Below, piece after piece: positions 19,487 to 61,299 of a stretch of 64,000 nucleotides of DNA (positions within the stretch are counted from its first letter, which is position 1; each line of letters begins with the position of its first letter). Position numbers and translations under genes: made by a program. The stretch comes from Patescibacteria group bacterium (GTDB taxonomy: Bacteria; Patescibacteriota; CPR2; UBA1875), in contig JBGSRK010000005.1 of the NCBI GenBank assembly GCA_041737595.1, positions 32,001-96,000 of the forward strand. Reading direction: 5' to 3'. The notes below the pieces were generated by a model that was not told the origin of the DNA, ran no database searches, and was given only the letters and a program-made list of their open reading frames with translations.

Positions 19487-20110
19487 TTATTCCTTTTTTG
19501 CTTTCTCTTTTGAAATTAAAAGAACAACGCCCTTTTTTGGGCCAGGAACTGCACCTTGGACCAAAATAAGATTTTCTTCTTCCATAATTTTAACAATTTT
19601 TATATTTTTAGTTGTTACCTGAATAGCACCCATTCTGCCTGGTAATTTTTGTCCTTTTAAAACATGTTGTGGGAACATAGCACCTATAGAACCAGGGGCT
19701 CTATAATTATGTGAACCATGGGTCTTTGGACCTCTGTGAAAATTATGTCTTTTAATTGTTCCTGCGAAACCTTTTCCCTTAGAAACACCGGTAATATCAA
19801 CTAAATCATTTTCTTCAAAGATATTAATTTCAATTTTGTCGCCTACTTGGTATGTTTTCCCATCTTCGGCTTTGACTTCTTTTAATTTTCTTGTTTGGGC
19901 TTTTGATTTTAATAAATGCCCTGCAAGTGGTTTAGATATTTTTTTTGATTTACCATAACCAAGCTGGATTGCTTCATAACCATCTTTTTCGGCTGTTTTT
20001 ATTTGTGTGACAACATTACCCTCAACTAAAAGCAAAGTAACAGGAACTAAATTCCCTTTTTCATCAAATATATGTGTCATCTCTACTTTTTTAGCAAGTA
20101 ATGCTTTCAT
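19487..20110 (-). CDS. rplC: 50S ribosomal protein uL3
   Basis: [28 protein letters not shown]. Confidence 0.97.
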
Positions 20111-20255
20111 TTTTCTCCTTTTAGCAAAACAAATTTCGACAGTGGATGGTTCCCTCTAGGCTTACTAGTCTTGGGCCTTTCTCACTCTCGAATTTAATAT
20201 TTTTGTGCTCTGCTAAGCGCCTAGAAATTATAGTGAATAATCAGACAAAAGTCAA
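20111..20255 (-). promoter_or_regulatory. rplC promoter and ~110-nt structured leader
   Basis: TTGACT-17-TATAAT (20255-20227); leader stem 20206-20216/20121-20131. Confidence 0.7.
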
Positions 20256-21043
20256 GAATTTTTTACTAACTTCTTGCCTGCTCGATATCTTAAATATAAT
20301 CTTGGATAGTTAAGAATATAAACAATTATACATAGAGGTTTTTGAAACGCAATTTTATGAGGCAAAAATGGCTCTCCGGTTGGATTAAATTTGAGTGTTC
20401 TTTTTTGACCCGTTATATTTTCCCATATTTCTTTTTTATTAATTGTTTTGTTTGAAGAAATTTCTGTAAAAATTTTACCCATATCTGCTGGGAAAAAATG
20501 CATATCTGACGCTCCAAATTTTAATACTTTATTATCTTTTTCAATATGTTCTTGTGCTTTTATGTTTCTAGATTCTCCTGTAAATGCATTAATTACTTCT
20601 ATTGCATCAATGTTAATCTCTTTATTATGTAAACCACGCAAAATACCCTTCCGGCCGAATGGGTGGGGAGCAACCACTGCACCTTTATACTTTTTGATTA
20701 TTTTAATAACCTCAGAAACATTTTTGAAATGTGGTATAAAGCCATTATTATATCTGTATTCTTTATAAAAATCTTTTATTTCTTGGATCTCATAAAAGTA
20801 TGCAAGAAGTTCATATGGTAACCCTTTAATAGTAAATGTAAGTTCAATTCCGGGGAAAAAGATTATCCCAGCCTTCTCGGCATATTTTTCAGCTTTAATT
20901 GTCCCAATAATTTCATTATGATCTGTGATTGAAAGTACTTTTATATTTTTATGTTTAGCATAAGCCACAATAAACCTAGGGAAATGTATCCCATCACTAT
21001 TATTACTATGAACATGTAAGTTAGCTTTATATGAGTATTCCAT
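20252..21043 (-). CDS. PHP-domain metallophosphoesterase
   Basis: LHVHS..SDG, ITDHN, GIE, HPF, ASDMH. Confidence 0.88.
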   Translation of the reverse strand: MEYSYKANLHVHSNNSDGIHFPRFIVAYAKHKNIKVLSITDHNEIIGTIKAEKYAEKAGIIFFPGIELTFTIKGLPYELLAYFYEIQEIKDFYKEYRYNNGFIPHFKNVSEVIKIIKKYKGAVVAPHPFGRKGILRGLHNKEINIDAIEVINAFTGESRNIKAQEHIEKDNKVLKFGASDMHFFPADMGKIFTEISSNKTINKKEIWENITGQKRTLKFNPTGEPFLPHKIAFQKPLCIIVYILNYPRLYLRYRAGKKLVKNS

Positions 21044-21052
21044 AAATACTAC

Positions 21053-22267
21053 TTATTCATAACGGAGTGCTTCGATTGGATCTTTTTTAGCGGCGCGAAG
21101 AGCGGGCCATAAGCCAAAAATTACACCTATTATGGTTGAGATTCCTATTGCAAGACCAACTACAGATGGAGTTATGGCGGGGGTCAAATCAGTTTTCGAA
21201 GCTACAACTCCTGAAACTGCAAATGAAATACCAAGCCCAATCAAACCACCAACCATTGTGACCATTACGGCTTCTATCAAAAATTGTAATGCAATGTCAA
21301 AACGTGTCGCACCAACTGCCTTCCGAAGACCTATTTCCTTTGTTCTTTCGGTGACAGTAACAAGCATAATATTCATAATTCCAATCCCACCAACAAGCAA
21401 GGATATTGATGCAATTGCTGATACAAGAGTGGTTAACAACCCCAAAAGATCATCCAATAAACCAACGATATCATCTTGAGTAAGCACAGTGAAATCCTCT
21501 TCATTTTCATGATTTTTAAGCATTGTGCTTTTTACGGACTCTTTTACATCGAGTACCTTATACCCGTCAGTTACTTTAATCATAATCCGTTGAATATTTA
21601 CTTTATTTTGGTTTATCCTTGTGGCCGTATCAAATGGTATTGCAGCAAGAGTTGAAAATTGATCTCCAAAGACGCTAGATGCTTCAACTTCACTAAATAC
21701 ACCGATTACCTTAAAATCTTCTTTCCCAACTTTTACAATTTTATTAACTGGGTCTTCATTTTCAAAAAGGTCTTTTTTTGTTTTTGGCCCTATAATTACA
21801 ACATTACCTGATTTATTTGATTTAAAAGTAGCACCCGATTCTACCTTAATAATTTGTAATGTTTCCCCTATTTCGGGGTATGTCCCTATTATCATTGGGA
21901 TAGTCTTTTTATCATTATATGATATTTCACCAGGGACAAGTGACATTGGTGCAATTTTATCAACTCCTTCTACTTCACTTATTTTATCCATATCACTTAC
22001 AGTTAAAACATTCCCACTCACAAAATTTGCAGGATTTGTTTGCTGCATACCTTGAGGATTGTTTGTGTCTATTTTGCCAGCGACTACAAACAATAAATTA
22101 GAGCCGAACCCTTTTACAAGACCCGAGACATCATTTTTTAAACCCTGCCCTAAAGAAATTAAAATTGTTACAGAAGATACTCCAATTACAATCCCAAGTA
22201 CGGTTAAAAGACTTCTTACTTTATTACCAAAAATTGACATTAATGCACTTTTTATTCCCTCAATCAT
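21053..22267 (-). CDS. MacB/FtsX-type ABC transporter permease
   Basis: RS.LT.LGIVIGV, GGIGIMNIMLVTVTERTKEIGLRKAVGA, DPIEALRYE. Confidence 0.93.
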   Translation of the reverse strand: MIEGIKSALMSIFGNKVRSLLTVLGIVIGVSSVTILISLGQGLKNDVSGLVKGFGSNLLFVVAGKIDTNNPQGMQQTNPANFVSGNVLTVSDMDKISEVEGVDKIAPMSLVPGEISYNDKKTIPMIIGTYPEIGETLQIIKVESGATFKSNKSGNVVIIGPKTKKDLFENEDPVNKIVKVGKEDFKVIGVFSEVEASSVFGDQFSTLAAIPFDTATRINQNKVNIQRIMIKVTDGYKVLDVKESVKSTMLKNHENEEDFTVLTQDDIVGLLDDLLGLLTTLVSAIASISLLVGGIGIMNIMLVTVTERTKEIGLRKAVGATRFDIALQFLIEAVMVTMVGGLIGLGISFAVSGVVASKTDLTPAITPSVVGLAIGISTIIGVIFGLWPALRAAKKDPIEALRYE

Positions 22268-22944
22268 TTTGCCTCCTTTATCAGCTTACCATCCATGATT
22301 TTATAGGTTCTTTTAGCATAATCTGCTATTTTTTGATCATGCGTAATAAGTATAATAGTCTTCCCCTTTTTATTTAAATCAACTAAAACTTTCATTATTT
22401 CTTGCCCACTTTTTGAATCAAGATTTCCAGTGGGTTCATCAGCAAGTATTATATCAGGATCATTAATAAGAGCTCGCGCGATTGCAACTCTTTGAGTTTC
22501 GCCCCCTGAAAGTTCTGATGGCTTGTGTTTTATTCTATTTTTAAGACCAACTTCTGAAAGAAGATTAACAGCTCTTTCTTGAGCAGATTTTTTCCCAATT
22601 TTTTTATAGATTGTTGGCATCACAACATTAGAAAGTGCTGTCATTTTATTCAAAAGATTAAACTGTTGGAAAATAAAACCAATTTTTTCGGAACGGATTT
22701 TAGCAAGCTTAGAATCTGGCATACTCATATTTATCTTTTTATTATCAATTAAAAGATCTCCAGAGGTTGGCCTATCAAGTAATCCTATTATGTGCATTAA
22801 GGTTGATTTGCCAGAGCCAGAGGGCCCCATAATAGCTATTATTTCTCCCTTTTCTACTTTAATAGAAATACCACAAACTGCGTTAACAGATAATTTACCT
22901 GATTTATAGGTTTTAGTAACATTTTTTAGTTCAATAATAGGCAT
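22264..22944 (-). CDS. LolD/MacB-type ABC ATPase
   Basis: GPSGSGKS, LSGGETQR, ILADEPTGNLD. Confidence 0.95.
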   Translation of the reverse strand: MPIIELKNVTKTYKSGKLSVNAVCGISIKVEKGEIIAIMGPSGSGKSTLMHIIGLLDRPTSGDLLIDNKKINMSMPDSKLAKIRSEKIGFIFQQFNLLNKMTALSNVVMPTIYKKIGKKSAQERAVNLLSEVGLKNRIKHKPSELSGGETQRVAIARALINDPDIILADEPTGNLDSKSGQEIMKVLVDLNKKGKTIILITHDQKIADYAKRTYKIMDGKLIKEAK

Positions 22945-22945
22945 A

Positions 22946-23680
22946 TTATTTCCATTCCATTGTGGCCATCATTTTTTCAAAATAATTTGTAATTTCTGCT
23001 ACAACTAAATCTGTAGTACTTGTGCTTTCTGAATGGAAAAAATAATTATGGTTATTTTGAATTTGATAACCCGACCCAGTTTTAGGTATTGTAGAAATTG
23101 AATAACCATTAAGATTAGCATTGTCACACATTAAATTTTCACCACTATTTAATGAATTATCTATCTCTTTTTTATTTGAAAGGATGAGTTTATTTGCCAA
23201 TATTTCAGTTGAATAAGTAATATTCTTTTTAACACAAGTTCCTCCTCGACCAAATATTTCGTCCATATTTAATGAAATTGCATATTTTTTTTCCTGGTTA
23301 TCAAAGATAACATTATCAATAGAAAAAACATTTGAACCTACATAAGTACTACCACTGCTTGTCTCATTTTCACTAACAACAAAGGAGCTCGGGTATTTAA
23401 TAGAAAAATTATATTTAGTGCTTGTATACGTTTTCCAATCTTTCATTTCATCATTCGAAACAGACGAAGATGTCGTTTTATTAAAATTTAGTTTAGTAGA
23501 ATAGTCTTCGTTATAATTTCTTGATCCTAAATACCAATATATTCCATAACCTATTAACGTTACAACAATTGCAAGAATTGAAAAAGCCGCAATAGTTTCT
23601 AAATGAAGATTTTTCTTATTTATATCTTTTTCAACCTCTTTTTTAAATTCATCAACTTGTTTTTTCTCTTTTTCTGTCAT
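22946..23680 (-). CDS. Single-TM exported protein, PsbP-like
   Basis: TM helix then WKTYTSTKYNFSIKYP motif. Confidence 0.6.
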   Translation of the reverse strand: MTEKEKKQVDEFKKEVEKDINKKNLHLETIAAFSILAIVVTLIGYGIYWYLGSRNYNEDYSTKLNFNKTTSSSVSNDEMKDWKTYTSTKYNFSIKYPSSFVVSENETSSGSTYVGSNVFSIDNVIFDNQEKKYAISLNMDEIFGRGGTCVKKNITYSTEILANKLILSNKKEIDNSLNSGENLMCDNANLNGYSISTIPKTGSGYQIQNNHNYFFHSESTSTTDLVVAEITNYFEKMMATMEWK

Positions 23681-23775
23681 AATTATCCCCTTTTTTGTTT
23701 TTTGTATTAACCAACAAATATATTATCACTCTTGTCAATAAATATCAAACCAAAGCGCTTACTTAATAAGTTAAT

Positions 23776-23801
23776 ACTTTACTAATGTACATTAGTAAAG
23801 T
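23776..23801. repeat. 26-bp perfect palindrome
   Basis: ACTTTACTAATGTACATTAGTAAAGT. Confidence 0.85.
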
Positions 23802-23821
23802 GCTTTTTTATAAAAAGCAAT

Positions 23822-23854
23822 AGACCGGCCTCGCGAAATCGCGAAGACCGGTCT
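23822..23854 (-). terminator. GC-rich 3' hairpin of unit 1a
   Basis: AGACCGG..TCGCGA/TCGCGA..CCGGTCT, followed by ATTGCTTTTT on minus. Confidence 0.7.
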
Positions 23855-23861
23855 TTACTTG

Positions 23862-24152
23862 TTATACCTCATACACGCACATCGTTACTTCGCCCAGACA
23901 AGCTGGTGCTTCAGCATGATATATCTTGCCTGTAGCGTGCACTTCGATTCGATAATGTAGAGTTACTCCTTCAAGATTACCGGAAAGAAGTGTGAACGAC
24001 CCCTTAATTGAATCAAGAAGATTGCGCTCATAGAGAGCATCAAGCAACTCTCTTCTAACTCGAATCGTTCCATTTGTTGTCTCTTTACCATCGGCCCGAT
24101 AGACCTTTGTGAAAAGTGGTTCCCTGTTGGAAACCGCAGCATCTGTCCCCAT
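23862..24152 (-). CDS. Hypothetical protein (GC-rich unit 1a), 96 aa
   Basis: SD AAGGGGG, own promoter and 3' hairpin. Confidence 0.7.
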   Translation of the reverse strand: MGTDAAVSNREPLFTKVYRADGKETTNGTIRVRRELLDALYERNLLDSIKGSFTLLSGNLEGVTLHYRIEVHATGKIYHAEAPACLGEVTMCVYEV

Positions 24153-24230
24153 CTCGTTACCCCCTTAAACTGATGGAATGAGTTTTTTCGACATATGCTG
24201 TGGTGCTTGAGGCATTTAACAAGCAAAACA

Positions 24231-24259
24231 ATAATAACTTTAATTTTGAGCCACGTCAA
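24231..24259 (-). promoter_or_regulatory. sigma70-like promoter of unit 1a
   Basis: TTGACG-17-TATTAT. Confidence 0.7.
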
Positions 24260-24286
24260 GCCAATATTATATTAACTTAGAAAAAC

Positions 24287-24312
24287 ACCCTAGGTATATT
24301 TCAACCTAGGGT
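24287..24312 (-). terminator. 3' hairpin of unit 1b
   Basis: ACCCTAGGT-8-ACCTAGGGT then GTTTTT on minus. Confidence 0.7.
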
Positions 24313-24334
24313 AGTTGCTCAACCAACGAGGCTT

Positions 24335-24664
24335 TCACCGATGTATCCTTGGATCAATTTGGGAAGTGAGTTCAAAATCAAAATACCTTATCTTCCCCTC
24401 CCCTTCACAAACAGTCCGGTAGACACAGTTGAACCTTCGCCCCTTGTTTCCAATTTCGAAGACTCCAACCGAAGTCTGAAACGCCTCAGCCCGGGAACCA
24501 AGTCGAATCCCGAACTTAGCCAACGTTCTACGTGCCTCGGCTACTATTTCGGTACACGATTGGCATGGATCTTTCCCGACAAGAGGGACCGTAATGATGC
24601 CATAGTTGGTCCTTCTATAACCAGAAGTGTCGCACTCCATCTTGAGCCTCCTCACGTCGCCCAT
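24335..24664 (-). CDS. Hypothetical protein with CxxC (unit 1b)
   Basis: Overlaps upstream ORF end; ends just before the 3' hairpin. Confidence 0.6.
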   Translation of the reverse strand: MGDVRRLKMECDTSGYRRTNYGIITVPLVGKDPCQSCTEIVAEARRTLAKFGIRLGSRAEAFQTSVGVFEIGNKGRRFNCVYRTVCEGEGKIRYFDFELTSQIDPRIHR

Positions 24665-24939
24665 TGCTTGAGTATGACATTACCATCCTTGAGTGAACAT
24701 GAATACACCGACATAAGGATGCCGGTTCGGGAATGAACCTGAATTCTGACAACTTGTGATAGATATCCACTTCGTGGGACGATGTTCTTATTGACATCGA
24801 ATGCACGAAATGACGTATCGCACTCGCTATCAGGAAGGCCATACCCATTGGAACGAATACGACGAAGTTCAGTGAAGACACACTCGAGCATATCTTCGTC
24901 AGGGCAACCTATGAGCTCAATGTTTATAGGCTCATTCAT
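24652..24939 (-). CDS. Hypothetical protein (unit 1b)
   Basis: Start MNEPINI at 24939 with GAGGT SD and ATGA overlap with upstream ORF. Confidence 0.62.
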   Translation of the reverse strand: MNEPINIELIGCPDEDMLECVFTELRRIRSNGYGLPDSECDTSFRAFDVNKNIVPRSGYLSQVVRIQVHSRTGILMSVYSCSLKDGNVILKQWAT

Positions 24940-25214
24940 GCTGCCACCTCTTCGATACCCGAGATAGTATACCAAGCTTTCACCTGGTAAGTACTATCTG
25001 TCTTTTCGACACGAGCTTCCACCTTTTGACCATCCGTATTAGTAAAATCAATACGAATGATTTTCTTGATGACGATTTTGACACTTACTGTCTTAAAACC
25101 GTAAACAAGAAGTAGAAGCTTCTCACAAGCAAGAGTCAGGGTACATATTTCTTTTGCGGTTGGACGTCCAGCTGAGGACTCAATCGCAAGATCAAGAATG
25201 TTATTCACATCCAT
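24936..25214 (-). CDS. Hypothetical protein (unit 1b)
   Basis: Start MDVNN at 25214 after AAGGGGGG; TATAAT at 25263-25258. Confidence 0.62.
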   Translation of the reverse strand: MDVNNILDLAIESSAGRPTAKEICTLTLACEKLLLLVYGFKTVSVKIVIKKIIRIDFTNTDGQKVEARVEKTDSTYQVKAWYTISGIEEVAA

Positions 25215-25297
25215 TTTGAGCCCCCCTTGGGTTCCTACCGTCTCTGACGTTATCGGCATTATATACCAAAAAAACTAATTTTAAAAGAATAAAAAAC

Positions 25298-25325
25298 AAA
25301 AAAAGCAGCTTTCGCTGCTTTTTTT
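25298..25325 (-). terminator. Intrinsic terminator after rpsJ
   Basis: A-tract GCAGC-TTTC-GCTGC T-tract. Confidence 0.8.
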
Positions 25326-25371
25326 GAATAGTTCTAGACCATCCGCCCATTGGCGAATAAAGTCTTCGGTT

Positions 25372-25692
25372 TTACATTTTTATTTCGATATCAACACCCG
25401 CTGGTAGAGAAATATTCATTAGACTATCAATTGTCTTCGCATTTGGTTCAAGAATATCTATAAGTCTTTTATGAACTCTCATTTCAAACTGTTCTCGGGC
25501 ATTTTTATCAACATTCGAAGCCCTAAGCACTGTTATTGGAGTTCGATCAGTTGGAAGCGGAATCGGACCAGAAATTTTTGAACCACTTCTTTGCGCGGTT
25601 TCAATTATTTGTTTAACAGACTGGTCAATGATCTTATGATCATATGCTTTCAGTTTAATTCTGATTCTTTGAGGTTTCTTTTCTTCTACCAT
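25372..25692 (-). CDS. rpsJ: 30S ribosomal protein uS10
   Basis: [30 protein letters not shown]. Confidence 0.97.
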
Positions 25693-25721: not shown

Positions 25722-26900
25722 TTATTTTGTAATCTTTGTTACTATACCCGCACCAACTGTTCTACCACCTTCTCGGATAGCGAACTTAAGACCTTGGTCC
25801 ATAGCAATTGGTTGCATAAGTTTAACATTGAAAGTGATTTTATCACCTGGCATTACCATTTCGGTACCTGCAGGCAGTTCTACTTCTCCTGTAACATCTG
25901 TTGTTCGAATATAGAATTGAGGTTTGTATCCTTTAAAGAATGGTGTATGTCGTCCACCTTCTTCTTTTGTTAGGATATAAACTTCTGCTTCAAATTCTGT
26001 GTGAGGTGTAATTGAACCTGGTTTTGCAAGAACCATACCACGTTCGATATCATCTTTTTCAATACCACGTAGTAAAAGTCCTGCGTTATCACCAGCTTGA
26101 CCTTGGTCAAGTTGTTTTTTGAACATTTCTACACCAGTAACAACAGTTTTTCTTGTTTCTTTTATCCCAACAATTTCTACTTCTTCATTGATTTTAATAA
26201 TACCTGATTCAATACGACCCGTAGCAACTGTTCCACGACCTTTAATCGAGAAAACATCTTCTACCGGCATAAGGAAAGGTTTATCTAAATCACGAACTGG
26301 TTCTGGGATAAAATCATCAAGAGCTTTAACAAGTTCAAGTATAGATTCTTCATATTTAGCATCGCCTTCAAGAGCTTTAAGAGCTGAACCACGAATAATT
26401 GGAGCATTGTCTCCATCAAAATCATATTTTGAAAGCAATTCTCTAATTTCCATTTCAACAAGATCAAGCATTTCTTCATCGGCTACCATGTCACATTTAT
26501 TCATAAAAACAACAATTTTAGCTACACCAACTTGGTTAGCAAGCAAAATGTGTTCACGAGTTTGTGGCATTGGACCATCTGTTGCAGCTACAACTAATAT
26601 AGCTCCGTCCATCTGAGCTGCGCCGGTAATCATGTTTTTAACATAATCTGCATGACCCGGACAGTCAACGTGTGCATAATGTCTTTTATCTGATTCATAT
26701 TCAACGTGAGCGGTAGAAATAGTTATACCACGTTCACGTTCTTCAGGGGCTTTATCAATATTTTCGAAGGCAGTAAATTCTGCTTTACCGTCTTTTGAAA
26801 GAACTTTAGTAATAGCAGCTGTCAAAGTTGTTTTCCCATGGTCTACGTGACCTATAGTACCGACATTGACATGAGGTTTTGAACGATCAAATGTTGCCAT
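25722..26900 (-). CDS. tuf: Elongation factor Tu
   Basis: [25 protein letters not shown]. Confidence 0.99.
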
Positions 26901-26994
26901 TTGGGGTCCTCCTTTAGATTAACTTTATAGTTTAGACAATAAAACTTATCCACAATAAGTGGAATTGGTAACTAACTTTTTGTGTTACTTCGCT

Positions 26995-27023
26995 ATTCTA
27001 TTATAATTTGAGTTGATTTGCAA
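26995..27023 (-). promoter_or_regulatory. tuf promoter
   Basis: TTGCAA-17-TAGAAT; TTATCCACA at 26946-26954 in the leader. Confidence 0.65.
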
Positions 27024-27045
27024 GTATTTTTATCTAAAATGACAG

Positions 27046-27067
27046 GACCCCGCCGGTTGGCGGGGTC
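27046..27067 (-). terminator. GC-rich 3' hairpin of unit 2
   Basis: GACCCCGCC-4-GGCGGGGTC; weak U-tract. Confidence 0.6.
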
Positions 27068-27088
27068 AATGGACAAGAAGAGGATCAT

Positions 27089-27265
27089 TCAGTCGAGGTG
27101 CATGTATGAAAAGGCTGCGTCACGTTCTTCGCGAAAAGTGCGTACCTTCGGCGAAACCAGTGATGCCAACCAAATCGGAAATTCGATCAGCATACACATA
27201 ATCGCGCTGAGTACGACGAGAGTGATCAAAACCGAATCGATCACCCATTCTTTGAATCTAAACAT
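27089..27265 (-). CDS. Small membrane protein, 58 aa (unit 2; not in ORF track)
   Basis: GGGAGG SD; MFRFKEWVIDSVLITLVVLSAIMCMLIEFPIWLASLVSPKVRTFREERDAAFSYMHLD*. Confidence 0.7.
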   Translation of the reverse strand: MFRFKEWVIDSVLITLVVLSAIMCMLIEFPIWLASLVSPKVRTFREERDAAFSYMHLD

Positions 27266-27275
27266 AGCGGCCTCC

Positions 27276-27596
27276 CTATCCTAGGCCCATTTCGTTGAGC
27301 TCGTCGAGAGTCGAGTTGTAGTCGGGCTCAAAGTTCGGTTTGATGAAACGGCCATGAATTCGAGATTCTTCGAGTTCCCTCACAAGCATATCATGTGCGG
27401 GCTTGTTGTGACATTGAGTACAAACGCTCGGCGACTCAAAGTCACAGTCGATACAGATCGCCGGATCAGGCCTGCCGGAGTTCTTTGCTCGCAACAGACG
27501 GATGACTCCGCCTGCCACAACTACTACAAAAGCGACCAAAAGAACCAAAACGATGGCACCTTCGGTTGTCGAGATAAGACCAATGAACCTCCCCAT
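27276..27596 (-). CDS. TM protein with CxxC-x7-CxxC (unit 2)
   Basis: GGGAGG SD, one TM, CIDC/CTQC. Confidence 0.72.
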   Translation of the reverse strand: MGRFIGLISTTEGAIVLVLLVAFVVVVAGGVIRLLRAKNSGRPDPAICIDCDFESPSVCTQCHNKPAHDMLVRELEESRIHGRFIKPNFEPDYNSTLDELNEMGLG

Positions 27597-27647
27597 GTTT
27601 CCTCCCTTAGGTTCGCACGGATTTACACCGTGAATATTAATACGATT

Positions 27648-27675
27648 ATTATATAATATTTTTAAAATAATTCAA
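27648..27675 (-). promoter_or_regulatory. sigma70-like promoter of unit 2
   Basis: TTGAAT-16-TATAAT. Confidence 0.6.
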
Positions 27676-38327: not shown

Positions 38328-38343
38328 TATTTTTTTAAAAGCA

Positions 38344-38370
38344 AAGGGCCACACGTATTGTGTGGCCCTT
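38344..38370 (-). terminator. GC-rich 3' hairpin of unit 3
   Basis: AAGGGCCACAC-5-GTGTGGCCCTT then TGCTTTT on minus. Confidence 0.7.
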
Positions 38371-38382
38371 GCCATGAATTGG

Positions 38383-38934
38383 TTATTTGGTGTCGATTTG
38401 TGTCCCAGTACTAATCGTCCCCCTTGGGACAATGAAATAGTACTCTGTCCCTCCGTAAACCTCTTGCCATTCGAAATTCAAACCGCAAGAGTTGAAAACA
38501 AATTCATGCCACCAACCATTCTTCGCATAACGACGGATAGCGAAAAGCCTTCTCTCAAGTCGTGGCAAGGTCACAGAGTCCTGTTCCTGAATATAGATCG
38601 GGTATTCTTTCTTGACCAACGTTTGTTGGACAATTCCTTTGTCTGTGTTGAAGGCATAGAAATACGTTGGTGTTGCACCGACAGTACCACAACCGAGAAA
38701 GATATCACCGCTTGCATTAGCACTATCGGAGAGTGCAACTAGGTGTGTAGTATAGACGACTGGCTTCGATTCTTCAATTGAAGCATTGTTACCCGCCCAA
38801 ATGAGGAAAAAGAAGAATATTGCCATCAATATTGAGAAACCACAACCTAAACAGCCATTCCACTCTTCCCAGAACATTAGAACGAAGAAACCAATAATGC
38901 CCACAACAATAACAGCGCTCAAGGACCAACCCAT
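38383..38934 (-). CDS. Hypothetical 2-TM membrane protein (unit 3)
   Basis: Start MGWSL at 38934 after GGAGG; two N-terminal TM helices. Confidence 0.72.
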   Translation of the reverse strand: MGWSLSAVIVVGIIGFFVLMFWEEWNGCLGCGFSILMAIFFFFLIWAGNNASIEESKPVVYTTHLVALSDSANASGDIFLGCGTVGATPTYFYAFNTDKGIVQQTLVKKEYPIYIQEQDSVTLPRLERRLFAIRRYAKNGWWHEFVFNSCGLNFEWQEVYGGTEYYFIVPRGTISTGTQIDTK

Positions 38935-38973
38935 GGCTACCCTCCAATCAAAGTGCACCTTTTGGTCAAGCTG

Positions 38974-52705: not shown

Positions 52706-52958
52706 GAGTATACCTAAATATTAATATGACATTTGTTAAAGAAATTGTACCTGCAAAAAGGTTTGTGAAAATTAAAGCTAAATCGTTTAGATGAACCCCA
52801 TAGATAAACCATAAAATATTTGCCATAACTAAAAGAATAAACATAGGGAGTGAAACATCTTTCGCACTTTTATGTTTTACTATTTTATAGACTTGAGGTA
52901 ATGCACTTATTATTACTAAAAAACCGCCAATATATGCAAGTATTTGATATGGATCCAT
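52692..52958 (-). CDS. SemiSWEET/PQ-loop transporter
   Basis: LPQVYK...SAKDVS, LW.IYG, 3 TM. Confidence 0.88.
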   Translation of the reverse strand: MDPYQILAYIGGFLVIISALPQVYKIVKHKSAKDVSLPMFILLVMANILWFIYGVHLNDLALIFTNLFAGTISLTNVILIFRYTHGKN

Positions 52959-53009
52959 AAAACAATTATCAAGTACTCTTAATTGAATTACAAGTGTACA
53001 AAAATAAGG

Positions 53010-53042
53010 CGGACCCCGACGACAATATGTCGAAGGGGTCCG
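53010..53042 (-). terminator. GC-rich 3' hairpin of unit 4
   Basis: CGGACCCC..CGACA/TGTCG..GGGGTCCG. Confidence 0.65.
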
Positions 53043-53141
53043 TTTGGTATCAACTCAGCAGGATTCTCAGGGAGGCCAAGAATTCTTTTCACCCCAGATG
53101 AGGGACTGAGCGACGCCAGAGTATTCAGTTTTTGGGATTGC

Positions 53142-53354
53142 CTAGAACCGTGCGAGTATGCGGAAGAGCTGAAAAGCGAAGAACCCTCCAAAGAGAATTA
53201 TCATCGCAAGCCCTCCGAACAGAAACTCGAACCGTTCTTTACCTTCATTTCTTACGGCGAGGTATATCATGCGAAGGCCGAAACCCAACATGACTACCAT
53301 CCCCGCCCCCAAAAGGGCGGCAAAGACAATCAATTCGTTCACTGATATTTCCAT
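53142..53354 (-). CDS. Small 2-TM membrane protein, 70 aa (unit 4)
   Basis: GAGAGG SD; two hydrophobic helices. Confidence 0.7.
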   Translation of the reverse strand: MEISVNELIVFAALLGAGMVVMLGFGLRMIYLAVRNEGKERFEFLFGGLAMIILFGGFFAFQLFRILARF

Positions 53355-53471
53355 GGTTCTTGCCTCTCTCTTACTACGACTACTAGTGTGATTAATCTAC
53401 GACTTTAGCTTCGTTGCGTACTCCTTTCCGCTTTAGGCGGGGTTGGACACGGCGAGAGACACTCGACCAAT

Positions 53472-53500
53472 ATATTATCATATATTATATATTATGTCAA
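53472..53500 (-). promoter_or_regulatory. sigma70-like promoter of unit 4
   Basis: TTGACA-17-TAATAT. Confidence 0.65.
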
Positions 53501-58989: not shown

Positions 58990-59671
58990 ATTTTTCAGTT
59001 GGAGTTTCTTCTACTACTTTTTCCGCGTTTTTACCAATTGAATCTTTCTCTTTTGGTTGTTCTTCTTCGGCTTTTTCAACCCCTGCATTTGTTTCTTTCA
59101 CTTCATCTACTTGGTGATCAATATCTTCGGAATCTTCATCTTTTTTATCTTCAGATTCAGCTTCTTTTATTTCGGCTTTTTCAACCTCTTCTAGTGGGAC
59201 TTCTTCTGATTCAGCTTCTGCAACCTGTTGTTCTGATAGTTCTGTAATTTCTGCATCCGTTGGTTCTTCTTTTACTTCTGATGTTTTTTCTGGTTCTTCT
59301 TCAGATACATTAACTGCAAGCGCGTCAAACCCCTTTTCTCGTAAACGTGCTGATTTACCTTGAAGTTTTCTAAGATATGTAAGATAAGCTTGTCTGACTT
59401 TTGCACGTTTTTTTATTTCAATTTTTGCTATGTTTGGTGAATATAATGGATAACTTTTTTCGATACCAACTCCGAAAGATATTTTTCTTACTAAAAATGT
59501 TTTCTTTAAACCACTACCACTTACTTTAAGCACAACTCCTTCAAAAATCTGAATACGTTCTTTATTCCCCTCTTTGATTTTTTGATGTACACGAACAGTA
59601 TCGCCAGACTTTAATGCTGGGATTTTTTTCAGGTATTTTTCTTCAACTTTTTGGACAAGTGTAGTATTCAT
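58988..59671 (-). CDS. rplS: 50S ribosomal protein bL19 with long acidic extension
   Basis: [30 protein letters not shown]. Confidence 0.96.
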
Positions 59672-59692
59672 AAGATTATTCTTTGCCGTAAG

Positions 59693-59721
59693 ATAATATC
59701 AAAAATTAGAGTAAGAGTCAA
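59693..59721 (-). promoter_or_regulatory. rplS promoter
   Basis: TTGACT-17-TATTAT. Confidence 0.68.
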
Positions 59722-59746
59722 TAAAAATGTCTTTTTACATAGAGTG

Positions 59747-59771
59747 CGAGCCGCCCCGAAGGGGCGGCTCG
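59747..59771 (-). terminator. GC-rich 3' hairpin of unit 5
   Basis: CGAGCCGCCCC-3-GGGGCGGCTCG; no immediate U-tract. Confidence 0.55.
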
Positions 59772-59960
59772 TTTCCGACAAAGAGTCGGTCTGGTGTCAT
59801 CGTTACCCTACCCTGAGGGATTAGAATCCCAAGGGCAACGTACCAGACGAAAAGGTCCTCAGGGCTTTCGGGGACTTGCATTTTCGTCCAATTTCCGGCT
59901 TACGCCAGAATGACAATTGCGCGAATGCGCTAGCCCATTTTGAGTGGGCAGAAGTAGTTC
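59772..59960 (-). ncRNA. Unassigned highly structured RNA (3' region of unit 5)
   Basis: Six consecutive stem-loops, one with a GTAA tetraloop; no ORF. Confidence 0.65.
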
Positions 59961-59963
59961 ACG

Positions 59964-60107
59964 TTAGGTAGTCTCTGACACTTTCTGCTTTGCTCTCTTG
60001 TTGGGGTTTGAAAACCTTCCCTCAAGAATAGCAATAACGAACAGAGCGAGACCAATGAAGCCAATGATAGCAGCTACAATATAAGCTGCAATTCCCAAGG
60101 GGATCAT
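59964..60107 (-). CDS. Small TM peptide, 47 aa (unit 5; not in ORF track)
   Basis: MIPLGIAAYIVAAIIGFIGLALFVIAILEGRFSNPNKRAKQKVSETT*, 6 nt after the upstream stop. Confidence 0.65.
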   Translation of the reverse strand: MIPLGIAAYIVAAIIGFIGLALFVIAILEGRFSNPNKRAKQKVSETT

Positions 60108-60113
60108 CTTTCG

Positions 60114-60521
60114 TCACAGATCCAGTGACTTGCGTCGATACTCGTCCGGCTCGTTGTAGCCGAGAAATGAATCCGACTCAACGGGCTCACATTCGAACCT
60201 TGGATGATTCGGACAAGTATCGTTGTGACAGTAGGGAGTCTTGAAACCCTTGACAGCCCCAGGAGCGATTCTCCCAAGACTAGTTTGGACACGAATGACT
60301 TTGTTCGCAAGACAAGGGACAAGTGCTCCATGCTCGCAAACGGTGCCATTCTTACCTGCGATTGCGATTGCCATGCAAGCATCGAGAACAACGTCTGGAT
60401 CGTTTCTGTAATCCTCATTCTCGAATTTGAGGAGTGAAAGACCCATTTCTGAAGCAGCTGAAATGGCGTGATTATCCCCAGCCTTTGCTGCTTCAAGTAG
60501 TTCGTGTAATTCTTTGTGCAT
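60114..60521 (-). CDS. Cys/His-rich hypothetical protein (unit 5)
   Basis: Start MHKEL at 60521 after AGGAGG; CEH..C and C.N.TC..H...C. Confidence 0.7.
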   Translation of the reverse strand: MHKELHELLEAAKAGDNHAISAASEMGLSLLKFENEDYRNDPDVVLDACMAIAIAGKNGTVCEHGALVPCLANKVIRVQTSLGRIAPGAVKGFKTPYCHNDTCPNHPRFECEPVESDSFLGYNEPDEYRRKSLDL

Positions 60522-60538
60522 GATTCCTCCTGGTGTGA

Positions 60539-60886
60539 TTAGGCCGTCGCGAATGATGCGTCGGCCTGGGCTGCAACTTGGGGGATAGGCACGATATTGA
60601 TGATGGCCGTGCCACAATTCTGGCACATACCTTCTTCGTAGGCAAGCCGGGTGGCTTCCTGGTGGCACCGATGTGATTCTGTCTTGACAGAACTCGCACA
60701 TTCGGGGCAACCACCTTCATAGTAGAAGGTACGCTTCATCTTGCGTGAAACACGACATTTCGAACGAACGACGCCAAGCTTGAAGCTCGCGTCGTTGAGC
60801 GAAAGTGCCATTTCGGTCAGAGTTGGCCCTTGGATTGGCTCAGTCTGATCGCCACGCAAACGATTCCGGGGAATCTTGTCGGACAT
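60539..60886 (-). CDS. Zn-finger-like hypothetical protein (unit 5)
   Basis: GGGAGG SD; CPEC, HRCH, CQNC. Confidence 0.68.
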   Translation of the reverse strand: MSDKIPRNRLRGDQTEPIQGPTLTEMALSLNDASFKLGVVRSKCRVSRKMKRTFYYEGGCPECASSVKTESHRCHQEATRLAYEEGMCQNCGTAIINIVPIPQVAAQADASFATA

Positions 60887-60999
60887 AACGCTTCCTCCCT
60901 CTAGTCTCTGGTTTTCCTTCCTAGGAACCCAGAGAAACTAGGGACCTGCTGGAATTACCATTGCATCACTCCTCTCACACTCCGTGAGCCTTTTCGGCT

Positions 61000-61221
61000 C
61001 TACATTTTATACCACTCACCAACCCCGATAAGGTTGACAAGGGTATGCCACTGAACCTCCCACCAATCACCTAGTGACTTTCGTGCACTCGGGGTAGTCG
61101 TTAGGTATTGAATATACCCAGCAGCAATCAAGATGAATGAACAGGCGATTATAGTAATCGCTATGTTGAGTCCCTCCTTGGGGAAAGAAATCCCCAAGAG
61201 AATAATATCATTAGTAATCAT
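61000..61221 (-). CDS. Small TM protein (unit 5)
   Basis: GGAGGAG SD; one TM. Confidence 0.68.
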   Translation of the reverse strand: MITNDIILLGISFPKEGLNIAITIIACSFILIAAGYIQYLTTTPSARKSLGDWWEVQWHTLVNLIGVGEWYKM

Positions 61222-61299
61222 GGCTCCTCCATTGACGTGAACTAATTGACAAGTTACTAGAAGTACCCCTATCTAGGAATACGAATTCTCGAAGACCAA

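What the first reader, a model, noticed from the sequence alone, without database searches (positions are those of the whole stretch)
23853..24228. Unit 1a: ~23-bp helix joining the transcript 5' end to the stop-codon region
Leader (minus) TTTGCTTGTTAAATGCCTCAAGCAC, plus-strand 24203-24227, is complementary to the ORF end/trailer, plus-strand TTTACTTGTTA--TACCTCATACAC at 23854-23876. There are three A/G differences that are G-U pairs on the sense RNA, one mismatch and a 2-nt bulge. The helix starts near the predicted TSS and abuts the terminal hairpin, and part of it is encoded within the last codons. This is the strongest single case.
Basis: seen in the sequence. Interest (0 to 1): 0.8.

Follow-up and report, generated by a model that had tools for sequence, protein, structure and literature searches.

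The report
End-to-end closing helix in small mRNA
A small gene of unknown function, sitting in a GC-rich insert of a tiny hot-spring bacterial genome, is predicted to make an mRNA whose first bases pair with its stop-codon region, closing the message into a loop; this resembles a few known bacterial mRNAs, and it is untested.

Summary
On the minus strand, 24226-24200 pairs with 23855-23880: 24 bp, with 3 G-U pairs, one A-A mismatch, a 2-nt bulge and a 1-nt bulge. It starts at the predicted +1 and touches the foot of the 3' hairpin with no gap.

- **Stability:** the helix is in the MFE and centroid folds. Most pair probabilities are about 1.0 at 37 C and 0.8 or more at 75 C. It is worth -8 to -10 kcal/mol net.
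- **Chance:** 0 of 3000 shuffles reach it with narrow windows. Among 800 ORFs of the AT-rich contigs it is rank 2 for near-continuous helix length. A wide-window z-score is only -2.84, rank 14 of 220 scored.
- **The gene:** the 96-aa ORF is real. It has 2 homologs at 59-63% identity, about 9 more distant ones, and an AF2 pLDDT of 82.7. It has no family or function.
- **Missing evidence:** no homolog DNA and no RNA run could be obtained, so covariation and the TSS are untested.

Best reading (0.4): a long-range 5'/3' closure that hides the 5' end from RNase J/Y, like the B. subtilis hbs mRNA. Rivals are an RNase III site, a hok-like translational lock, chance, and a DNA inverted repeat. I class it as a new member of a known kind, of moderate interest.

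The parts
24231..24259 (-). Promoter-like site: -35 TTGACG (24259-24254), 17-nt spacer, -10 TATTAT (24236-24231). It predicts a TSS near G24224.
   Evidence: 10 of 12 matches. The TSS position is inferred from the usual 7-nt distance and is not mapped.
24200..24226 (-). 5' arm of the end-to-end helix. It is the first ~25 nt of the predicted transcript.
24205..24224 (-). Local 5-bp hairpin (GCUUG/CAAGC, 10-nt loop, -5.3 kcal/mol). The nascent 5' arm is predicted to form it until the 3' arm is made.
   Evidence: present in most nascent-length folds up to 352 nt (9 of 11 lengths; other local pairings at 200 and 300 nt), and replaced by the long-range helix from 362 nt on.
24138..24199 (-). Initiation-region hairpin. 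Leader 24199-24190 pairs with codons 2-5 (24147-24138). The AUG (24152-24150) is paired with 24175-24173. The SD GGGGG (24164-24160) lies in a 9-nt apical loop.
   Evidence: It forms from 90 nt of nascent RNA onward, whether or not the end helix is present.
23862..24152 (-). 96-aa ORF with an ATG start and a TAA stop, of unknown function. The model is a cystatin/Mog1-like alpha+beta fold.
   Evidence: No Pfam or PHROG family.
23855..23880 (-). 3' arm of the end-to-end helix: part of the M91/C92 codons (23880-23877), codons V93-V96, the stop codon and 7 nt of trailer.
23812..23854 (-). GC-rich 14-bp hairpin (23854-23822), followed by UAUUGC and a run of six U (23817-23812). I read it as the intrinsic terminator. 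It stacks directly on the end helix.
   Evidence: The terminator scan does NOT list it, because the T-run starts 5 nt after the stem. The terminator role is my inference.

Best explanation
The unit 24259->23812 (minus strand) is a self-contained gene cassette with its own promoter, a strong SD, a 96-aa ORF and a terminator hairpin. Its mRNA is closed by a 24-bp long-range helix. The first ~25 nt of the transcript pair with the last four codons, the stop codon and the short trailer. This helix stacks on the terminator hairpin, so the 5' end is buried at the foot of a ~38-bp quasi-continuous rod.

The most likely role is control of mRNA decay. In an organism that has RNase J and RNase Y and in which no RNase E/G was found, a paired 5' end denies the single-stranded 5' end that 5'-dependent decay needs. 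The hairpin blocks 3' exonucleases. This is the principle shown for the 14-bp 5'/3'-UTR interaction of B. subtilis hbs mRNA.

Because the 3' arm contains the stop codon, every terminating ribosome must melt the helix, which would tie the closure to translation.

What is shown: the sequence complementarity, its predicted stability, its positions relative to the ORF, and the nuclease genes. What is inferred: the TSS, terminator use, pairing in vivo, and the effect on decay.
For: - The helix is in the MFE and centroid folds. Pair probability is about 1.0 for most pairs at 37 C and mostly 0.8 or more at 75 C. The source is probably a hot-spring metagenome.
- Net gain is -7.5 to -9.8 kcal/mol at 37 C and -5.9 to -8.6 at 65 C, against the best fold without pairs spanning more than 300 nt. 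This holds for three assumed 5' ends.
- Strand bias: all 3 transition mismatches are G-U on the sense strand; -24.8 sense against -16.6 antisense. Whole unit without the hairpin: z -5.36 sense against -3.55 antisense.
- Rarity: 0 of 3000 shuffles reach it; rank 2 of 800 ORFs for near-continuous helix length.
- Position: the 5' arm begins at the +1 predicted from the promoter, and the 3' arm ends with zero gap at the hairpin foot.
- RNase III, RNase J and RNase Y genes were found in the genome. RNase E/G was not found (genome 96.9% complete).
- hbs precedent: a 14-nt interaction (-19 kcal/mol) between the 5' UTR and the sequence just upstream of the terminator, confirmed there by compensatory mutations, restricts RNase Y cleavage (PMC5737220, abstract and section 16 read).
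Against: - No covariation test was possible. No DNA of any homolog was found.
- No RNA run was listed, so the TSS, the 3' end and expression are unknown.
- With wide windows the shuffle z-score is only -2.84, rank 14 of 220 scored.
- The end helix is not a shared trait of such cassettes. 9 ORFs downstream of rpsJ in 7 relatives have best near-continuous runs of only 7-13 bp. The neighbouring tricistronic unit has only a 6-bp end contact, in the MFE but not the centroid.
- The conserved C-terminus (V-Y/H-E-V) can be explained by the last beta-strand of the protein alone.
- The terminator scan did not flag the 3' hairpin.
Confidence: 0.4

Rival explanations
1. RNase III processing or decay site. 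The ~24-bp duplex formed by the flanks of the ORF is cut by RNase III, which removes the 5' end and the terminator together. This is like rRNA or intervening-sequence processing stalks, or the icaR 5'/3'-UTR duplex. It would either destabilise the mRNA or excise it from read-through transcripts of the highly expressed tuf-rpsJ operon upstream.
For: The duplex is about two helical turns long with small irregularities. An RNase III gene is present. The helix still forms when the transcript is assumed to start upstream, at 24345 (24 pairs in the MFE). [quoted passage not shown]
Against: Nothing here shows cleavage. The unit has its own promoter directly upstream and a terminator-like hairpin before it (24313-24286), so read-through excision is not needed. 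A duplex that every terminating ribosome melts is a poor constitutive RNase III target.
Confidence: 0.13
2. A hok/aapA1-like fold-back lock. The full-length mRNA is kept translationally inert by the 5'-3' pairing until 3' trimming lets it refold, because the product is harmful.
For: Like those mRNAs, it has a 5'-3' long-distance interaction and a metastable 5' hairpin that is replaced when the 3' end appears. Passages read: PMC5416894 and PMC9841398. The AUG is paired. The transcript is ~410 nt.
Against: The product is 96 aa and models as a soluble alpha+beta domain, not a short hydrophobic peptide. The SD sits in a loop. The AUG-pairing hairpin forms with or without the end helix. No + strand promoter-like site lies inside the transcribed region. 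No PADLOC search was run, and Pfam gave nothing.
Confidence: 0.07
3. Chance complementarity without function, picked out because the reader searched a 64-kb window for the best case.
For: Wide-window z is only -2.84, and 13 of the 220 scored ORFs score lower. There is no conservation evidence. The family is tiny, so selection cannot be assessed.
Against: 0 of 3000 shuffles reach it. It is rank 2 of 800 for continuity, and the only one besides an IS200-like inverted repeat that joins a run of 23 bp or more with -30 kcal/mol or lower. Its register is exact at the predicted +1 and at the hairpin foot. The G-U pairs all favour the sense strand.
Confidence: 0.22
4. A DNA-level inverted repeat: decayed terminal repeats of a small mobile cassette that brought the GC-rich gene in.
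For: The gene lies in a GC-rich (about 45%) insert in a 32-34% GC genome. The site downstream of rpsJ holds different GC-rich small ORFs in relatives. Other ORFs in this genome are flanked by true inverted repeats (ranks 3 and 4).
Against: The arms and the unit are single-copy in the genome. The arms lie inside the transcription unit, one of them in the coding sequence. All 3 transition mismatches favour the sense RNA (chance 1 in 8). No transposase or recombinase lies in the island.
Confidence: 0.08

Closest known systems
B. subtilis hbs mRNA 5'/3'-UTR long-range interaction (PMC5737220; abstract and section 16 read)
   Same: A small gene (HBsu is ~92 aa, recalled) on a short monocistronic mRNA. 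The 3' partner lies just upstream of the terminator and the 5' partner in the leader. The host decays mRNA with RNase Y and J1. The stated role is to limit nuclease access.
   Different: Here the helix is longer (24 bp against 14), imperfect, starts at the predicted +1 rather than after leader hairpins, and runs into the last codons and the stop codon. There is no sequence or protein relationship, and no experiment.
hok mRNA tac/fbi stem and H. pylori aapA1 full-length mRNA 5'-3' interaction (PMC9841398 and PMC5416894, passages read)
   Same: The 5' end pairs with the 3' end of a ~250-400 nt mRNA. A metastable 5' hairpin precedes it. The result is a compact, stable full-length form.
   Different: Those interactions sequester the SD and go with a peptide toxin (aapA1: 30 aa, PMC5416894; hok: 52 aa, recalled) and an antisense RNA. 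Here the SD is in a loop, the protein is 96 aa and models as soluble, and no antisense promoter was seen.
S. aureus icaR 5'/3'-UTR pairing (PMC3868564, abstract read)
   Same: An intramolecular 5'-3' duplex in a bacterial mRNA, with RNase III present in the genome.
   Different: icaR uses a short UCCCCUG motif in a long 3' UTR against the SD. Here the SD is not involved and the trailer is only 7 nt.
Phage 'morons' (recalled, no call): a promoter-gene-terminator unit of deviant GC content inserted between genes
   Same: The cassette architecture and the deviant GC content.
   Different: This one lies in a bacterial ribosomal-protein gene region, and no phage genes are adjacent.

Membership tests
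Bacterial mRNA with a 5'/3' long-range interaction (hbs type) | Complementarity between the leader and the sequence just upstream of the terminator, predicted to form in the full transcript | tested here: met
Bacterial mRNA with a 5'/3' long-range interaction (hbs type) | RNase Y / RNase J decay machinery in the host | tested here: met
   (both above the Pfam cut-off). RNase E/G not found.
Bacterial mRNA with a 5'/3' long-range interaction (hbs type) | Pairing confirmed by compensatory change (natural or engineered) and an effect on decay | not testable with these tools
   No homolog DNA and no RNA data.
Type I toxin-antitoxin mRNA (hok / aapA1 type) | Small hydrophobic toxin peptide | tested here: not met
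   96 aa, with a beta-alpha-beta4 soluble model at pLDDT 82.7.
Type I toxin-antitoxin mRNA (hok / aapA1 type) | SD sequestered by the long-distance interaction | tested here: not met
   The SD is in a 9-nt loop. The AUG hairpin is independent of the end helix. This rests on prediction only.
Type I toxin-antitoxin mRNA (hok / aapA1 type) | Cis-encoded antisense RNA | tested here: inconclusive
   The promoter scan shows + strand sites only at 24207-24300, and these fire away from the mRNA. A consensus scan cannot exclude an antisense RNA.
RNase III processing stalk | About 20 bp or more of duplex, and RNase III in the genome | tested here: met
RNase III processing stalk | Cleavage within the duplex | not testable with these tools
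   No RNA ends are available.
MITE / IS terminal inverted repeats | Several copies with the same ends in the genome | tested here: not met
   blastn-short of the unit and the island against the genome: only the self hit, plus an unrelated palindrome.
Any Rfam family | Covariance-model match | tested here: not met
   At gathering threshold, only 5 tRNAs in the window. At E up to 10 over 23600-25500, only sub-threshold noise.

The most novel reading that the evidence does not exclude
This is a translation-gated, thermostable 'closed-loop' bacterial mRNA. The 5' end is locked from +1 onto the stop codon and stacked on the terminator. The message would then be nuclease-proof while idle and opened once per terminating ribosome. 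It would be one of a set of horizontally acquired, hyper-structured mRNA cassettes lodged in the ribosomal-protein gene region of a hot-spring, reduced-genome bacterium. The neighbouring tricistronic unit has z -6.2 and twelve helices of 9-16 bp, eleven of them within or spanning the coding sequences.
Probability: 0.12. Interest if true: 0.7.

Novelty: new member of a known kind. Interest (0 to 1): 0.42.

Why it matters
Intramolecular 5'-3' pairing is documented for only a handful of bacterial mRNAs (hbs, icaR, hok, aapA1). This case is longer than the ones I read about. It starts at the predicted first nucleotide, includes the stop codon and stacks on the terminator, and it sits in an uncultured small-genome lineage from a hot spring. 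If real, it gives a compact and easily mutated model for how end-pairing couples mRNA decay to translation termination in an RNase J/Y organism. It would also suggest that acquired cassettes can carry their own mRNA-stability design. If it is chance, nothing is lost but a prediction.

Tried and rejected
**Homolog DNA for covariation.**
- The search for related loci with A1, A2 or A3 found pattern hits but no confirmed relative, in metagenome contigs, genome contigs and viral contigs.
- Searches returned an error because the alignment was too divergent. I made a closer alignment (A3) and repeated the search.
- The genome search found no match beyond the own genome at E <= 0.001. With the single protein, 4 of 60 relatives had weak hits at E 0.11-0.16. 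With profile A2, 0 of 27 other genomes of the order and 0 of 400 of the phylum matched.
- tblastn against phages and plasmids found nothing.
- The look-up of encoding contigs is declared closed and I did not call it.

**Sequencing runs.** No RNA holder was listed. X1 (a hot-springs metagenome, possibly the source) and X2 carry identical contigs over the listed pieces. No variant in the helix appeared among the 40 differences shown; 419 more were not shown. X2 has a contig break over about 23630-23913. The lay was dominated by tuf from other organisms.

**Protein function.** Pfam and PHROGs gave no family. Foldseek against the PDB gave no hit at E <= 0.001. VIA wide gave a best Z of 7.0 (Mog1, cystatin-like), which is within the range of common arrangements. 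The ESM Atlas gave no usable hit.

**Is the end helix a general trait?** Not in 9 ORFs downstream of rpsJ in 7 relatives. Not in the other high-z ORFs of this genome, whose pairings are fragmented and AU-rich. CDS z-scores in relatives' cassettes are -0.4 to -2.5.

**Other.** Rfam found nothing. Supplementary files of the papers were not opened; those of PMC5416894 and PMC5737220 hold the structure figures and could refine the comparison.

**Closed or failed calls.**
- run_python gave no answer twice. I re-ran the work in smaller scripts.
- Fold search gave one transient error and I collected it with the same ticket.
- Term-syntax errors were corrected.
- The search found 0 papers.

Full report
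**Setting.** The window lies on a 119-kb contig of a 1.09-Mb, 143-contig genome bin that is 96.9% complete with 3.5% contamination. Relatives in the same phylum have genomes of roughly 0.5-2 Mb. I take this, by inference, to be a reduced-genome lineage of the Patescibacteria type. The DNA is held by a hot-springs metagenome run and a biofilm run of the same study.

The window is ~32-34% GC and carries the str/S10 ribosomal gene region on the minus strand: fusA, tuf 25722-26900 and rpsJ 25372-25692. Directly downstream of rpsJ, 23800-25260 rises to 44-52% GC. This island holds two transcription units.
- The first is tricistronic (about 25255-24286) and ends in a terminator-like hairpin at 24313-24286.
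- The second is the unit in question.

**The unit.**
- Promoter: TTGACG, 17 nt, TATTAT (24259-24231), which predicts a TSS near G24224.
- SD: AAGGGGG, 7 nt before the ATG at 24152.
- ORF: 96 aa, ending in TAA at 23864-23862.
- Trailer: 7 nt (23861-23855).
- 3' hairpin: 14 bp, GC-rich (23854-23822), followed by UAUUGC and six U.

The scan does not list this hairpin as a terminator, because the T-run starts 5 nt after the stem. Its terminator role is my reading.

**The helix.** In total there are 24 bp with 3 G-U pairs, one A-A mismatch, a 2-nt bulge and a 1-nt bulge.
- It is part of the MFE (-145.9 kcal/mol) and of the centroid of the 418-nt unit, whose z-score is -5.87 with 0 of 100 shuffles as stable.
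- The interior alone (24202-23877) has z -2.2. The excess stability is therefore mostly the end helix plus the hairpin.
- Without the hairpin the unit still has z -5.36 on the sense strand, against -3.55 on the antisense strand.
- Pair probabilities are about 1.0 for most pairs at 37 C and mostly 0.8 or more at 75 C.
- Forbidding pairs that span more than 300 nt costs 7.5-9.8 kcal/mol at 37 C and 5.9-8.6 at 65 C. This holds whether the 5' end is put at 24224, 24261 or 24345.

**Chance.**
- With 41-nt windows at the two ends, 0 of 3000 dinucleotide shuffles reach the observed -32.4 kcal/mol. The z-score is -5.7 and the Gumbel estimate 7.5e-4, which is rough.
- For an empirical null I took all 1129 ATG-ORFs of 90 aa or more in the genome. 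1086 could be scored, of which 800 lie on contigs below 40% GC. I dropped the rest because GC-rich contigs of the bin dominate the tail.
- Using 90 nt upstream against 63 nt around the stop, the unit is rank 8 of 800 by energy.
- Its shuffle z-score in these wide windows is only -2.84. That is rank 14 of the 220 ORFs I scored: the 160 most negative plus 60 random ones, with 30 shuffles each.
- By length of the longest helix interrupted by at most 2 nt, it is rank 2 of 800. The ORFs at ranks 1 and 3 have weak AU pairings (-17.2 and -13.0 kcal/mol). The only other ORF that joins a run of 23 bp or more with -30 kcal/mol or lower is an IS200-like gene with true terminal inverted repeats.
- Other high-z ORFs show fragmented AU-rich pairings.

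I conclude that the helix is unlikely to be chance, at roughly 0.05-0.15 expected per window of this size. The wide-window result keeps chance a live rival.

**RNA or DNA?** The three transition differences between the arms are all G-U on the sense strand, and would be A-C on the other strand. The energies are -24.8 and -16.6 kcal/mol. The arms and the whole island are single-copy in the genome. This favours an RNA-level feature of the sense transcript over a transposon end.

**Neighbouring structure.**
- Inside the end helix, and stacked on it, leader 24199-24190 pairs with codons 2-5. 24177-24172 pairs with 24153-24148, so the AUG is in a stem while the SD lies in a 9-nt loop.
- This hairpin appears once 90 nt are made and does not depend on the end helix.
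- In most nascent-length folds the 5' arm forms a 5-bp local hairpin from +1. The long-range helix displaces it once about 362 nt exist.
- In the predicted folds, therefore, the end helix does not gate the SD. This argues against a hok/aapA1-type lock, where the long-distance interaction sequesters the SD (passages of PMC9841398 and PMC5416894).

**The gene.**
- The ORF has two full-length homologs at 63% and 59% identity. A profile search of 1.84 billion representatives found 13 proteins at E <= 0.001. I aligned 11 proteins of 94-109 aa: the window's own, the two close homologs, and 8 further hits.
- I left out the four longer multi-stretch hits, P0008, P0010, P0014 and P0015.
- The N-terminus (MGTDAAVS) and the C-terminus (V-Y/H-E-V then stop) are the best conserved parts. 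These are the two coding stretches that pair with the leader. They can equally be explained at protein level, since the C-terminus is the last beta-strand.
- AF2 with 3 sequences gives pLDDT 82.7 and a beta-alpha-beta4 topology.
- Foldseek finds nothing at E <= 0.001. VIA wide gives a best Z of 7.0 to Mog1 and cystatin-like folds, which is within the range of common arrangements.
- Pfam, PHROGs and the Atlas give nothing.

The gene is real and its function is unknown. It was not found in 60 relatives, 27 other genomes of the order or 400 of the phylum.

**Mechanism.** RNase III, RNase J and RNase Y genes were found, and RNase E/G was not. In B. subtilis, which has the same nuclease set, hbs mRNA carries a 14-nt interaction (-19 kcal/mol) between its 5' UTR and the sequence just upstream of its terminator. 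Compensatory mutants there showed that this interaction limits RNase Y cleavage and stabilises the primary transcript (PMC5737220, section 16).

The present helix has the same layout, but it is longer, begins at the predicted +1 and runs into the stop codon. I therefore favour an end-closure that withholds the 5' end from RNase J/Y while the hairpin blocks 3' exonucleases. By inference from the known footprint of a terminating ribosome, each termination event would open the helix. The rivals are an RNase III site (icaR precedent, PMC3868564 abstract), a fold-back translational lock, chance, and a DNA inverted repeat.

**Not a shared trait.** The region downstream of rpsJ in 8 relatives also carries extra DNA. 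rplC starts about 1.0-1.2 kb after rpsJ in 2 of the 8, and is not within the 0.25-1.5 kb of downstream sequence held in the other 6. That DNA is often GC-rich and carries unrelated small ORFs. None of the 9 ORFs I tested there has an end-to-end helix; their best runs are 7-13 bp. Six CDS stretches from five of these ORFs have z -0.4 to -2.5.

**Verdict.** The helix is real in the sequence, thermodynamically robust and rare. It is best filed as a new member of the small class of bacterial mRNAs with 5'/3' long-range pairing. Function and in vivo existence are untested.

Noticed in passing
window 24280-25255 (minus strand): The upstream tricistronic unit has three ORFs of ~92-101 aa, each with a strong SD. 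It is exceptionally structured. The whole unit has z -6.2. The gene A CDS has z -5.4 (antisense -2.6) and gene B -4.5 (antisense -2.8), while gene C has -0.8. There are twelve helices of 9-16 bp, most with pair probability above 0.9 and eleven of them within or spanning coding sequence. Gene A has no homolog in 5.8 billion proteins.
   Followed up: partly
window 23777-23800: A perfect 24-nt palindrome lies between the unit's terminator and the promoter of the next gene. The genome has 6 copies with at most 1 mismatch, mostly in AT-rich intergenic DNA. It may be an operator or a recombination site.
   Followed up: partly
window 26961-27660, 38341-38960, 52921-53500, 59641-61240: There are further GC-rich islands (46-52% GC) in the AT-rich ribosomal and RNA-polymerase gene region. 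The one between fusA and tuf is an own-promoter, two-ORF membrane-protein cassette (z -1.9). ORF 38383-38958 matches phrog_8077 (E 1.9e-12). Genome-wide, 219 windows-merged islands cover 126 kb of the 766 kb of AT-rich contigs.
   Followed up: partly
L013, L014, L017, L018, L019 (downstream of rpsJ in relatives): The site downstream of rpsJ looks like a hotspot in this order. Relatives carry different, mostly GC-rich small ORFs there, some with their own promoter-like and terminator-like sequences. Examples are two unrelated 99-aa ORFs and a 100-aa zinc-ribbon protein.
   Followed up: partly
window 19487-25372: An ABC-transporter ATPase and permease, a 244-aa membrane protein and a 263-aa ORF sit between rpsJ and rplC. 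These two genes are adjacent in most bacteria (that adjacency is recalled, not from a call).
   Followed up: no
G000:C54:115280-115909; G000:C67:30884-31171; G000:C137:3149-3493: Three ORFs are flanked by true inverted repeats: an IS200/REP-associated-transposase-like 209-aa ORF (z -8.2), a GIY-YIG-like 95-aa ORF, and a 114-aa ORF that resembles 23S-rRNA intervening-sequence proteins. The family names are from my reading of the sequences; I ran no family search.
   Followed up: no
G000, whole bin: About 215 kb of the bin lies on contigs of ~50-70% GC, against 877 kb at ~30-40% GC. The bin is probably mixed. Those contigs were excluded from my controls.
   Followed up: partly
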